From: Prorocentrum cordatum
Lineage: Eukaryota
Assembly: GCA_963575745.1 (NCBI GenBank)
Contig: CAUYUJ010000076.1
Span: 62,001-118,654, forward strand
Direction: 5' to 3'
DNA length: 56,654 nt
Shown: positions 41,201 through 42,355 of the stretch, piece by piece
Position numbering within the stretch: position 1 is the first letter of the stretch
Layout: the number at the start of each line of letters is the position of its first letter
The notes under the pieces: generated by a model
The model's database searches: none
Seen by the model: the letters and a program-made list of their open reading frames with translations, nothing else
Told to the model about the DNA's origin: nothing
Made by a program: the position numbers and the translations under genes

Positions 41201-42355
41201 TGATCCTTTTCCCAGTCGGCAATTTGCAGGACATGGCGAAGGCCGGGAAGAAGCCCACCGGTACGAAGGGCGAGCTCTACGCAGACCTGAAGGCGGCGGC
41301 GAGGGAGGCGATCCTGAGGCGGTTCGAGGAGTCTGGCGCTGGGAAGATCCGCGAGCACATCGTGGAGGAGTTCGAGTAGGGGATCGTCTACAGAATTGGT
41401 TTATCCCAAAATTTGTTTTTGTCGTCGAATGACCCAACCAATGCGAATCAAGTTCGTAGATCTACTACCATTGGACGCATTTTTCTCCGCAGATTCAACG
41501 AACAAATCAATTTTTGGGTAATCAATTCTGTAGTCGATTCCCTACTCCAGGAGTTTGTGCGGGACCCGGAGGACCTCCTTGAGCTGTACGGCCTCGAGCA
41601 CGGCGCCACCTTCTCGCTGTCGCACGACCTGTTCCAGCTCGCCATGACCCGCCCTCCCCCTCGCTCGAACGAGGTTCGAGTAGGGGATCGACTACAGAAT
41701 CGATTCACCCCATCGACTTGCCCCAAAACTGATTTCCCGTCGAATCTACGAAACATGCCTGCAATGCTCGGTAAATCTACACTTAAGTCGGGCCTGTCCC
41801 TCTGCAGGGGGGAAACTTAAAATAGTCAAACAATAGTCTGGGGACGATTTGTTTTAGAAGTTTTGAGCATTTTTTTCTTCCAAAATCCGCCTGTAGGGGG
41901 ACATGCCCGACCTACATCTACACTGACTGCTCTACGCACTTTCCGCAGGGGCTCGACGAGGAAGTACAGTTTTTTTTTGTTTTTGTTTTTGTCAATTCTG
42001 TCGCCGATCCAGGTGGACGACCTCTTCTTCGTCGGCGCCGGGACCCGCCCGGGGAACGGCGTGCCCCTGGTCCTCAGGGCGCCAGAGACGGGGGCACAGC
42101 AAAGGGGGGCACGGGGGACGCCGAGCTCCACGTTTGGCCATGCCCCCGTTCAGGGGGCCCTGGGCGCCATGGATGGGGGTACGGTGAACGGGGACAGAAG
42201 GAACAGCCTAAACCCCCGTTTAGCTAAACCCCCGTTTGCGAAGCCCCGAGGTCCTGATGGGCGCGGGCATGCTGTCGGAGCAGATCCTCCGGGACTTCGC
42301 GGCGCGGGCGGCGGCGCCCGGGGGCGGGGCTGGCCAGCGGGCCGCCGCGGCGTGA
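26220..42355 (+). CDS. crtI: Multi-exon CrtI-type phytoene desaturase / carotenoid FAD-oxidoreductase with N-terminal plastid-like leader
   Basis: Exons 26220-26386, 26991-27048, 27529-27583, 29115-29765, 31430-31505, 33537-33654, 35818-35958, 40999-41367, 41551-41673, 42013-42069, 42251-42355 sum to 1920 nt in frame. Motifs: [79 protein letters not shown]. Confidence 0.9.
26387..26990 (+). mobile_element. Intron formed by a TIR element (Introner-like family D) with nested MITE
   Basis: 5' GAGGAGAAGGGTACCCCTGCCGCTA vs reverse complement of 3' end GAGGCGAAAAGGGTACCGACACCGCTA; related copies near 21950-22070, 28940-29114, 33097-33255 and 36310-36450. Confidence 0.7.
26545..26954. mobile_element. 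hAT-like MITE (8-bp TSD) with internal (TA)n expansion
   Basis: Perfect TSD GAGTAGCG at 26537-26544 and 26955-26962. Confidence 0.88.
27070..27228. mobile_element. hAT-like MITE (8-bp TSD), copy
   Basis: GTAAGTCGGGCATGTCC...GGACATGCCCGACCTAA; flanks CACAAGCG/CACAAGCT. Confidence 0.85.
28441..28503 (+). pseudogene. Degenerate duplicate of crtI exon 27529-27583
   Basis: GTGGACTAGCCCAGGGGCTCCCTGAAGGGCCTCGAGGACCTCGAGAGCCTCGGTGG is near-identical but has a CAG>TAG stop. Confidence 0.8.
29115..29765 (+). CDS. crtI: crtI exon with Rossmann FAD-binding motif
   Basis: [40 protein letters not shown]...; CCAG acceptor, GTGAG donor. Confidence 0.92.
30227..30391. mobile_element. Short TIR element with internal GACCCCCGTCG repeats
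   Basis: TTTCTTGATAAGCGTCGGGG...CCCCCACGCTTATTGAGAAA. Confidence 0.65.
31430..31505 (+). CDS. crtI: crtI exon
   Basis: [28 protein letters not shown] acceptor, GC donor. Confidence 0.85.
31775..32508. repeat. (TATGC)n grading into (CTAAG)n pentanucleotide satellite
   Basis: Directly visible. Confidence 0.95.
32920..33045. mobile_element. Family A element, copy not forming its own intron
   Basis: GTCAAGTAGGGGATCGACTATAGAATTGA...TCAATTCTGTAGTCGATCCCCTCCTCGAA; GGA on both flanks. Confidence 0.85.
33537..33654 (+). CDS. crtI: crtI exon
   Basis: [41 protein letters not shown] donor with GAGGAGCG boundary repeat. Confidence 0.85.
33934..34130. mobile_element. Foldback/TIR element
   Basis: AGGCCTAGAGGTTGACACCAACACCAAG...CTTGGTGTTGGTGCCCATTTCCAGGCCT with further internal complementarity. 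Confidence 0.7.
35818..35958 (+). CDS. crtI: crtI exon
   Basis: [21 protein letters not shown]...KKDYSCG; 3' boundary uncertain. Confidence 0.82.
36124..36266. mobile_element. MITE (CGCGTTCCACTACTCGCA TIR)
   Basis: Inverted ends; second copy at about 54440-54578. Confidence 0.75.
37075..37830. repeat. (GT)n/(GCGT)n microsatellites
   Basis: Two tracts, about 37075-37335 and 37549-37830. Confidence 0.95.
38330..39210. repeat. Degenerate ~70-bp tandem repeat
   Basis: CACA(G/T)GGCCAG..GG.GCGCGAAGCAT units at 38432, 38502, 38741, 38811, 38881, 39021 and 39091. Confidence 0.75.
40999..41367 (+). CDS. crtI: crtI exon
   Basis: IIAFYWALD...[29 protein letters not shown]...IREHIVE. Confidence 0.88.
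41368..41550 (+). mobile_element. Introner-like family A element forming a GA-AG intron
   Basis: TIR TTCGAGTAGGGGATCGTCTACAGAATTG / CAATTCTGTAGTCGATTCCCTACTCCAG; 3-bp TSD GAG. Confidence 0.88.
41551..41673 (+). CDS. crtI: crtI exon
   Basis: [41 protein letters not shown]. Confidence 0.88.
41674..42012 (+). mobile_element. Introner-like family A element forming a GT-AG intron
   Basis: Same 5' TIR; truncated 3' TIR CAATTCTGTCGCCGATCC; 3-bp TSD AGG. Confidence 0.88.
41783..41915. mobile_element. hAT-like MITE (8-bp TSD) nested in an Introner-like intron
   Basis: Perfect TSD ATCTACAC at 41775-41782 and 41916-41923. Confidence 0.9.
42013..42069 (+). CDS. crtI: crtI exon with C-terminal signature
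   Basis: [19 protein letters not shown]. Confidence 0.9.
42070..42250 (+). mobile_element. Introner-like family B element forming a GT-AG intron
   Basis: Degenerate TIR CTCAGGGC..ACGGGGG..AGCAAAGGGGGG vs CCCCCGTTTAGCTAAACCCCCGT..GCCCCGAG; GTC duplicated at the boundaries. Confidence 0.65.
42251..42355 (+). CDS. crtI: crtI last exon
   Basis: [16 protein letters not shown]...AAA*. Confidence 0.85.
   Translation, partial: VLMGAGMLSEQILRDFAARAAAPGGGAGQRAAAA

What the first reader, a model, noticed from the sequence alone, without database searches (positions are those of the whole stretch)
41368..42012. Two adjacent crtI introns are copies of one TIR transposon that builds its own splice sites
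Seen: both introns begin TTCGAGTAGGGGATCG..TACAGAAT and end with its inverted repeat, and a third complete copy sits at 32920-33045. All three have 3-bp flanking duplications (GAG, AGG, GGA). In intron 41674-42012 the AGG duplication gives the AG acceptor, and its G plus the element's first T gives the GT donor, so splicing restores the frame exactly. In intron 41368-41550 the donor is GA from the TSD and the acceptor appears to come from a change of the TIR end (GAA to CAG). Known: Introner elements create introns in algae and dinoflagellates. Inference: one family reached intron status by two different routes about 120 nt apart. Whether this family is already described is unknown to me.
Basis: partly seen in the sequence, partly recalled or inferred. 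Interest (0 to 1): 0.85.

Follow-up and report, generated by a model that had tools for sequence, protein, structure and literature searches.

The report
Transposon-made introns in dinoflagellate crtI gene
Two neighbouring introns of a dinoflagellate carotenoid-desaturase-family gene are copies of one small inverted-repeat transposon that is cut out of the mRNA exactly, a clean example of an intron-making mechanism already described in dinoflagellates.

Summary
One short TIR element (MITE) occurs three times in the window: six TIR arms against 0.02 expected by chance. All three copies lie in one crtI-family gene, each flanked by a 3-bp duplication (GAG, AGG, GGA). Transcript contigs from 4 runs of 4 studies join the exons exactly across both elements. 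The skip of 183 nt can only be read as GA..AG (41368-41550). The skip of 339 nt reads as GT..AG (41674-42012). Homologous proteins are collinear across both junctions.

Two corrections. Intron 2 keeps only the inner 18 nt of its 3' arm. It also carries a nested second MITE with an 8-bp duplication.

The interpretation, an introner-like element that takes splice sites from its ends and its duplication, is supported. It is not a new kind. Roy et al. describe dinoflagellate elements with a 3-nt duplication that make introns in several registers, and hundreds of dinoflagellate introner families are catalogued.

No genome was held. Family copy number, an autonomous partner and intron absence in orthologues could therefore not be tested.

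Verdict: a real, well-supported new member of a known kind, of modest interest.

The parts
29114..42355 (+). crtI-family (phytoene desaturase family) gene, the part seen here. Exons: about 29114-29765, 31430-31505, 33537-33654, 35818-35958, 40999-41367, 41551-41673, 42013-42069 and 42251-42355 (stop).
   Evidence: tblastn of homologues. RNA contig pieces and joints. Splice registers. TIGR02734 crtI_fam: 183.9 bits for exon 1, and 352.5 bits (cut-off 238.1) for the 86% identical homologue P0002.
41368..41550 (+). Intron E, 183 nt, GA..AG. It consists of the 5' GAG duplication plus the whole of MITE1 copy 1.
   Evidence: Joint 41365->41549 in 4 of 4 runs; it slides by 7. GA..AG is the only G[TCA]..AG register among 8. 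In-frame TAG at 41377-41379.
41371..41550 (+). MITE1 copy 1, 180 nt, nearly palindromic over its whole length. The 5' end is TTCGAG and the 3' end is CTCCAG. It is flanked by GAG (41368-41370 and 41551-41553).
   Evidence: RNA fold -73.2 kcal/mol, z -8.69, 0 of 200 shuffles as good.
41551..41673 (+). Exon of 123 nt between the two element-derived introns.
   Evidence: RNA contig pieces with 0 other letters in 4 runs. Collinear with P0001, P0002, P0003, P0005 and P0006.
41674..42012 (+). Intron F, 339 nt, GT..AG. It consists of the last G of the 5' AGG duplication, MITE1 copy 2, and the AG of the 3' AGG duplication.
   Evidence: Joint 41671->42011 (GT..AG at cut +2) in 4 of 4 runs. Registers.
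41675..42010 (+). MITE1 copy 2, 336 nt including a nested element. The 5' arm is intact. The 3' arm lacks the outer 10 nt. It is flanked by AGG (41672-41674 and 42011-42013).
   Evidence: (I4).
41783..41915 (.). Nested copy of a second MITE family (MITE2), with the 8-bp duplication ATCTACAC at 41775-41782 and 41916-41923.
32920..33045 (+). MITE1 copy 3, 126 nt, complete, flanked by GGA (32917-32919 and 33046-33048). It lies inside intron B (31506-33536) of the same gene. By geometry it also has one GA..AG register (32918-33046).
   Evidence: Fold z -5.66.
42070..42250 (+). Intron G, 181 nt, GT..AG, with a 6-nt direct repeat (GGTCCT) at its borders and terminal inverted repeats. It is a different, single-copy, introner-like intron.
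   Evidence: Joint in 4 of 4 runs. Inverted-repeat score 22, reached by about 1 of 300 shuffles. No other copy in the window.

Best explanation
A non-autonomous TIR transposon (a MITE) of about 125-195 bp, with TIRs of about 28-31 bp and consensus ends TTCGAG...CTCGAA, inserted twice into coding exons of a dinoflagellate crtI-family gene. Both insertions are in sense orientation and made a 3-bp duplication. A third copy sits in an upstream intron of the same gene. Each exonic insertion is removed by the spliceosome as an intron. Copy 2 (duplication AGG) uses G|T across the duplication/element boundary as donor and the AG of the downstream duplication as acceptor. Copy 1 (duplication GAG) uses the GA of the upstream duplication as donor, a donor class normal in dinoflagellates, and an AG at its divergent 3' terminus as acceptor. 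In both cases splicing leaves one copy of the duplication and so restores the pre-insertion coding sequence. Shown: the repeats, the duplications, the exact RNA junctions and the collinearity with homologues. Inferred: transposition in trans by an unseen transposase, a target preference for AGG-like purine triplets, help from the TIR hairpin that brings the two splice sites together, and later decay of copy 2 (nested MITE2, loss of 10 nt of the 3' arm). It works like, and most likely is, an introner-like element.
For: Six TIR arms against 0.02 expected, and 5 hits against 0.00 expected for the 25-mer. 3-bp duplications flank 3 of 3 copies. Each intron is exactly element plus part of the duplication, with no other intron sequence. 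Transcript contigs of 4 runs from 4 studies join across both introns with 0 mismatches in the flanking exons. GA..AG and GT..AG are the only G[TCA]..AG registers, 1 of 8 and 1 of 5. A second GA..AG intron (C, 33655-35817) lies in the same gene. Read-through would hit a stop. Five homologues, two of them 94% and 86% identical, read straight across both junctions. All 3 MITE1 copies have one restoring G[TCA]..AG register on the sense strand and none on the antisense strand, against 1 of 7 (+) and 0 of 7 (-) for MITE2 copies, which have more registers. Hairpins: z -8.69 and -4.07. The same mechanism is published for dinoflagellates, including a class with a 3-nt duplication that uses several registers and an excess of GA donors in recent gains.
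Against: Only three copies were seen, all in one gene. No genome was held, and no further copy turned up in the public collections I could scan. Family-scale intron creation is therefore not shown. A spliced mRNA is identical to the mRNA of an uninterrupted copy, and no DNA run was available to exclude such a copy (0 of 20 holders had half or more of the words). The same transcripts skip 5040 nt (35959-40998) with no G[TCA]..AG in any of 4 registers, which is unexplained. The 3' arm of copy 2 is truncated, so its duplication is inferred from the 5' side and from the restored coding sequence. With consensus ends, a GAG target would not have been spliceable at once. No transposase was found among the 36 ORFs of 300 aa or more that I scanned, out of 144 ORFs of 170 aa or more.
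Confidence: 0.8

Rival explanations
1. An ordinary MITE family that is not a genome-scale intron maker. Most copies would be intergenic or intronic, and these two exonic insertions survived only because they happened to be spliceable. This agrees with the origin of the two introns and disputes only the family-level label 'Introner'.
For: Only 2 of the 3 copies seen are introns, and the third lies inside an intron. No other copies are available. MITE2 shows that ordinary MITEs are common in this window.
Against: 3 of 3 copies are in sense orientation with a restoring G[TCA]..AG register, against 1 of 14 strand-readings for MITE2. All three duplications are permutations of AGG, a proto-splice-site-like target.
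Confidence: 0.25
2. The transcripts come from another allele or paralogue that never received the insertions (empty sites). On this reading the window's copy is a disrupted, silent gene and nothing is spliced.
For: By construction, the spliced product and an empty site are the same sequence. The 5040-nt skip has a 3-nt repeat (ATC) and no usable splice dinucleotides, as an insertion into an exon would. No DNA run was available.
Against: All exon pieces match the window with 0-1 other letters over about 1.8-2 kb in 4 runs. Yet the elements look old: the copies are about 90% alike only in the TIRs, copy 2 has a nested MITE2, and copy 2 has lost 10 nt. An old dead copy should have diverged in its exons. 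Both elements offer a G[TCA]..AG pair in exactly the restoring register, 1 of 8 and 1 of 5. One contig (X1) runs 10 nt into the 3'UTR MITE2 copy of this locus.
Confidence: 0.06
3. The introns are older than the elements: MITE1 inserted into two pre-existing introns whose other sequence was later lost.
For: MITEs do sit in introns here: copy 3 in intron B, and MITE2 copies in introns C and F.
Against: Intron E is exactly duplication plus element. Intron F is exactly 1 nt plus element plus 2 nt. Removing the element and one duplication gives an uninterrupted reading frame that matches the homologues.
Confidence: 0.04
4. Removal is not spliceosomal. It would be either hairpin-guided excision as proposed for Amoebophrya non-canonical introners, or a reverse-transcriptase or assembly jump across the hairpin.
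For: Strong hairpins. Direct repeats of 7 and 4 nt at the junctions. One non-G[TCA]..AG skip in the same gene. Different skips across the 3'UTR MITE2 in X10 and X6.
Against: The junctions are identical in 4 runs of 4 studies. Both introns have a G[TA]..AG register typical of dinoflagellate spliceosomal introns. The product is the conserved protein.
Confidence: 0.04

Closest known systems
Polarella glacialis introner-like elements, class 9 (3-nt duplication), Roy et al., bioRxiv 10.1101/2020.10.14.339549. I read parts 1-2 of 4. The journal version (Curr Biol 2023) I saw only as a citation.
   Same: A DNA-transposon-type element with a 3-nt target duplication. Introns are created in several registers, with the 5' or 3' splice site inside the duplication, inside the element, or spanning the boundary. 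Here registers 0, 1 and 2 occur in three copies.
   Different: Sequence relatedness could not be tested, because preprint supplements are closed. The host here is a different dinoflagellate with about 60% G+C. Only three copies were seen here, against 272 introns for that class.
Symbiodinium / Symbiodiniaceae introners that 'carry the 3' site and co-opt the 5' site'. Sources: Roy et al. preprint; Gozashti et al. 2022, PMC9860276, passages; Gozashti et al. 2025, PMC12130899, supplementary file 8.
   Same: Intron E works this way: the inverted repeat ends at the AG acceptor and the upstream duplication supplies a GH donor. GA donors are frequent. Supplementary file 8 lists families with 3-bp duplications and palindromic TIR families.
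   Different: The described Symbiodinium pattern has a 4-nt duplication. Intron F of the same family instead takes both sites from the duplication and its boundary.
Introner elements of Aureococcus and Micromonas (Huff, Zilberman and Roy 2016). Known to me from Roy et al.'s text and from recall; the paper itself was not read.
   Same: [quoted passage not shown]
   Different: Different lineages and different duplication lengths. No sequence similarity was tested.
Amoebophrya introner elements (Farhat et al. 2021, PMC7789003, passages), and the pattern-defined 'IE+' introns of Prorocentrum cordatum (Genome Biol 2023, PMC10666404, passages and supplement passages).
   Same: Inverted repeats of 8-20 nt plus direct repeats of 3-5 nt at the intron ends, and a hairpin that joins the exon borders. 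Both introns here fit that search pattern. P. cordatum is reported with 59.7% G+C and such elements in 2.4% of its introns; the window has about 60% G+C.
   Different: Amoebophrya elements mostly have non-canonical borders and no family-specific repeats. Here the borders are GA-AG and GT-AG, and the TIR is family-specific. The P. cordatum paper, in the passages I read, gives no family-level sequences. The organism of the window is not established.

Membership tests
Introner / introner-like element (ILE) | The element is removed from mRNA as an intron. | tested here: met
   Joints across both elements in 4 of 4 runs. Caveat: an empty-site copy would give the same RNA.
Introner / introner-like element (ILE) | Similar copies form introns at many unrelated sites or genes in the genome. 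| tested here: inconclusive
   Two introns plus one intronic copy, all in one gene, and none elsewhere in the 56.6 kb. No genome was held. Public scans found nothing real.
Introner / introner-like element (ILE) | Transposon hallmarks: terminal inverted repeats and a target-site duplication. | tested here: met
   TIRs of 28-31 nt. 3-bp duplications in 3 of 3 copies. The 3' arm of copy 2 is truncated.
Introner / introner-like element (ILE) | Splice sites come from the element ends and/or the duplication, so that splicing restores the target sequence. | tested here: met
   Registers. The restored reading frame equals that of the homologues.
Introner / introner-like element (ILE) | The intron is absent at the orthologous position in relatives (recent gain). 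| not testable with these tools
   No genomic DNA of related dinoflagellates could be fetched. Only proteins were available.
MITE (non-autonomous class II element) | Short, non-coding, with TIRs and a duplication. | tested here: met
   126-195 nt of own sequence. Stops in the exon frame. No Rfam family matches.
MITE (non-autonomous class II element) | An autonomous partner with the same TIRs that encodes a transposase. | tested here: not met
   Only six arms, i.e. three short copies, occur in the window. No transposase domain was found in the 36 ORFs of 300 aa or more that I scanned, out of 144 ORFs of 170 aa or more. A partner may lie elsewhere in the genome.
Polarella ILE class 9 | 3-nt duplication and several splice registers. 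| tested here: met
   compared with the text read.
Polarella ILE class 9 | Sequence homology to that class. | not testable with these tools
   The class sequences are in a preprint supplement that is closed. The TIR 11-mers are absent from the 14 supplementary files of PMC12130899.
Amoebophrya-type non-canonical introners | Borders that are not GT/GC/GA..AG. | tested here: not met
   Introns E and F have GA..AG and GT..AG.
Superfamilies with 3-bp duplications (CACTA/EnSpm, PIF-Harbinger); defining features recalled, not from a call | CACTA termini, or TWA target duplications. | tested here: not met
   The termini are TTCGAG and the duplications are GAG, AGG and GGA. The superfamily remains unknown.
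crtI family (TIGR02734) for the host gene | Score above the curated cut-off. | tested here: inconclusive
   Exon 1 alone scores 183.9 bits against a cut-off of 238.1. The 86% identical full-length homologue P0002 scores 352.5 bits. The joined window protein was not scored.

The most novel reading that the evidence does not exclude
MITE1 is an undescribed, dedicated sense-strand introner family of a high-GC dinoflagellate. Its ends (TT...AA) would make nearly every sense insertion at an AGG-type triplet spliceable at once: AGG gives GT-AG, and GGH gives GH-AG. Trimming or substitution of the 3' terminus, seen in both intron copies but not in the intronic copy, would be a recurrent maturation step. 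That step would create an acceptor and free the 5' splice site from the hairpin. Local hopping would have seeded three copies in a single gene.
Probability: 0.25. Interest if true: 0.5.

Novelty: new member of a known kind. Interest (0 to 1): 0.3.

Why it matters
This is a compact, transcript-verified case of intron gain by a DNA transposon. One element family uses three different splice registers within one gene. The case also supplies a specific TIR that can be counted genome-wide. It adds an example to a mechanism already documented on a large scale in dinoflagellates. It does not open a new question. The unexplained 5-kb skip without usable splice dinucleotides in the same gene may be the more puzzling feature.

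Tried and rejected
- **Whole genome.** None is held for this window, so there is no copy count, no autonomous partner search and no empty-site test.
- **Public DNA scans for the TIR.**
  - The metagenome scan with the 23-nt pattern gave 0.
  - The relaxed 20-nt pattern gave 3 loci. All three are the same 33% G+C sequence with no match beyond the pattern, so they are chance hits.
  - Viral contigs gave 0 and prokaryote genome contigs gave 0.
- **Earlier findings of this scan.** Nothing by sequence, place or words.
- **Pfam on the three short 3' exons.** 0 families.
- **PDB sequence search with exon 5.** Only weak CrtI-type hits (4rep_A, E 0.013; 4dgk_A, E 0.12), plus a better-scoring spurious collagen-adhesin hit.
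- **Rfam on 41300-42600.** 0 matches.
- **Print searches.**
  - Four TIR 11-mers occur in 63 papers. The 10 listed are unrelated biomedical or plant papers.
  - The 11-mers do not occur in the 14 supplementary files of PMC12130899.
  - 'Prorocentrum' does not occur in the 12 of 14 files searched.
  - Dfam and RepBase could not be searched.
- **Sequencing runs.** No listed run held half or more of the stretch's words, so no DNA holder was laid. Parts of the introns without RNA cover are not used as evidence.
- **A longer target duplication.** A 7-nt duplication for copy 1 or a 4-nt one for copy 2 was considered and rejected. Only 3 nt keeps the two TIR ends symmetric in the two complete copies.
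- **A scaffold gap as the cause of the odd 5040-nt skip.** Rejected, because the only N run is at 17233-17332.
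Full report
**What is in the sequence**

The window is nuclear DNA of a dinoflagellate with about 60% G+C. An exon translation finds 14 proteins with E <= 0.001 among 658 candidates. The best hits are two unnamed metatranscriptome proteins (94% and 86% identical). 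Dinoflagellate proteins follow, among them one from Effrenium voratum at 62%. The 86% homologue scores 352.5 bits on TIGR02734 crtI_fam against a cut-off of 238.1, and exon 1 of the window alone scores 183.9 bits. So 'crtI-family gene' is sound. The exact enzyme activity is not established.

Mapping of homologues and transcript contigs gives at least eight exons between 29114 and 42355.

**The repeats**

- Intron 1 ends with the inverted copy of that stretch (28-nt arms, 89% complementary).
- A 25-nt TIR consensus with up to 3 mismatches matches 5 times, and none of 100 shuffles had a match.
- The inner 18-mer matches 6 times against 0.02 expected.
- These six arms make three elements: 32920-33045 (126 nt), 41371-41550 (180 nt) and 41675-42010 (336 nt).
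- A blastn-short self-search found no further copy in the 56.6 kb.
- With the termini set by the TIR alignment (TTCGAG at 3 of 5 intact ends, CTGGAG and GTCAAG at the other two), the flanking triplets are GAG/GAG, AGG/AGG and GGA/GGA.

- The 3' arm of the third element lacks its outer 10 nt.
- That element carries a nested copy of a second MITE family at 41783-41915, with a perfect 8-bp duplication.

**The RNA**

The run search listed 24 runs. Twenty hold part of the stretch. The best holders have a share of 0.39, about the exon share of the stretch, and none holds half or more of the words.

I laid 4 of the 24 listed runs, from four studies. Two are on record as polyA RNA libraries. In all four, one contig follows the exons with 0-1 differences. 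These contigs skip exactly 183 nt (41365->41549, sliding by 7) and 339 nt (41671->42011).

- Among the 8 possible registers of the first skip, only 41368-41550 gives G[TCA]..AG, namely GA..AG. There is no GT..AG register.
- Among the 5 registers of the second skip, only 41674-42012 does, as GT..AG.
- Intron C of the same gene also has GA..AG as its only such register.
- GA donors are normal in dinoflagellates and enriched among recently gained introns (Roy et al. preprint).
- Read-through of intron 1 meets a TAG after three codons.
- Five homologues read straight across both junctions.

**How it most likely works**

Each intron equals the element plus part of its duplication and nothing else.
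- Intron 1 is the upstream GAG plus the element. The donor is the GA of the duplication. The acceptor is the AG of a divergent 3' terminus (CTCCAG, where the consensus is CTCGAA).
- Intron 2 is the last G of the upstream AGG, the element, and the AG of the downstream AGG. The donor GT spans the duplication/element boundary.

Splicing leaves one copy of the duplication and so restores the target.

I then asked, for every MITE copy, whether any register that restores the target has G[TCA]..AG.
- All 3 MITE1 copies have exactly one such register on the sense strand, each in a different register (0, 2 and 1). None has one on the antisense strand.
- The third case is the copy inside intron B, which by geometry could be spliced as GA..AG.
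- For the second MITE family, which offers more registers, the counts are 1 of 7 on the + strand and 0 of 7 on the - strand.

With consensus ends TT...AA, a sense insertion is spliceable at once at AGG or GGH targets, but not at GAG. Copy 1 therefore needed its terminal AG. Three copies cannot decide this.

As RNA, the elements fold into long hairpins that bring the splice sites within a few nucleotides of each other (z -8.69, -4.07 and -5.66). A role of this hairpin in splicing is inference.

**Rivals**

- *Empty-site copy.* A spliced mRNA is, by construction, identical to the mRNA of a copy that never received the insertions, and I had no DNA run to exclude such a copy. Against it, the exons of the window equal the transcripts, while the elements look old. 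The copies are alike only in their TIRs, there is a nested MITE, and a 10-nt terminal loss has occurred. Both elements also offer splice dinucleotides in exactly the restoring register.
- *Insertion into older introns.* This is unlikely, because no intron sequence other than the element remains.
- *A non-spliceosomal or artefactual jump across the hairpin.* This is unlikely, because the junctions are identical in four studies and the borders are canonical for dinoflagellates.
- *An ordinary MITE family.* What stays open is the family-level claim. With three copies in one gene, I cannot show that this family makes introns across the genome.

**Comparison with what is known**

Roy et al. (preprint, parts 1-2 read) describe dinoflagellate introner-like elements with TIRs and duplications. 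They report:
- 12,253 candidate element-derived introns in Polarella;
- a class with a 3-nt duplication that creates introns in four registers, with either splice site inside the duplication, inside the element, or spanning the boundary.

That is the behaviour seen here.

A supplementary table of Gozashti et al. 2025 holds 293 mentions of dinoflagellates in its rows of introner families. The 30 rows I saw include 3-bp duplications, 'co-opt 5' carry 3'', 'co-opt both' and palindromic TIR families. Farhat et al. 2021 and the Prorocentrum cordatum genome paper define introner elements by inverted repeats of 8-20 nt and direct repeats of 3-5 nt at intron ends. Both introns here fit that pattern.

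I did not find this TIR in print. 'Prorocentrum' is absent from the 12 of 14 supplementary files searched. Dfam, RepBase and the preprint's supplement were out of reach. The organism of the window is not established. Its G+C resembles the 59.7% reported for P. cordatum, which is a lead only.

**Verdict**

The finding is a new member of a known kind. It is a neat, transcript-verified illustration, not a new mechanism.

**Left unexplained**

The same transcripts skip 35959-40998 (5040 nt) with a 3-nt repeat (ATC) and no G[TCA]..AG in any of 4 registers. This stretch has no terminal repeats and no scaffold gap.

Noticed in passing
window 35959-40998: Transcript contigs of 4 of 4 runs skip 5040 nt between two exons, with ATC on both sides. 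None of the 4 possible registers gives G[TCA]..AG (AT..GG, TC..GA, CC..AT, CG..TC). There are no terminal inverted or long direct repeats. Inside are (TG)n and 11-, 32- and 70-nt tandem repeats. It is either a truly non-canonical intron or a 5037-bp insertion absent from the transcribed copy.
   Followed up: partly
window 1585-1777, 24279-24434, 24541-24705, 26545-26954, 27070-27228, 41783-41915, 42386-42544; single arms near 32718, 33668, 34644, 53648: A second, more abundant MITE family with roughly 26-nt TIRs and 8-bp target duplications. The duplications are perfect in 4 of 7 complete copies, 7 of 8 nt in 2 copies, and degraded in 1. One copy is nested in intron F, and one starts 9 nt inside intron C.
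   Followed up: partly
window 42386-42544 (3' UTR): RNA contigs of X10 (42385->42544) and X6 (42388->42543) skip the 3'UTR copy of the second MITE at slightly different, non-splice-like borders. The X1 contig instead runs 10 nt into it. The tool marks 'between: not known'. Possible causes are polymorphism, a hairpin jump or an assembly effect.
   Followed up: no
window 42070-42250: The next intron (181 nt, GT..AG) has a 6-nt direct repeat (GGTCCT) at its borders and terminal inverted repeats (about 1 of 300 shuffles as good). It looks like another transposon-derived intron of a different family, with a single copy in the window.
   Followed up: partly
window 33652-33659 and 35815-35822: Intron C (GA..AG, 33655-35817) is bordered by an 8-nt direct repeat (GAGGAGCG), the length typical of the 8-nt-duplication introner classes described in Polarella. 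No terminal inverted repeat was detected.
   Followed up: no
window 32918-33046: The MITE1 copy inside intron B has its own restoring GA..AG register, so it could in principle be a nested intron. The contigs show only removal of the whole of intron B.
   Followed up: no
window 4285-5613 (+): An open frame of 443 aa with two HNH_3 endonuclease matches (87.7 bits) and an I-HmuI NUMOD-like domain (33.4 bits). This is a homing-endonuclease-like gene in dinoflagellate nuclear DNA.
   Followed up: no
window 17233-17332: A scaffold gap of 100 N between a (GTGC)n-like array and a (GTA)n-like array.
   Followed up: no
window 33111 and 36339: In all 4 runs a contig fits up to 33111 and again from 36339, with the same roughly 37 foreign letters between. 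This is probably a transcript of a related repeat elsewhere.
   Followed up: no
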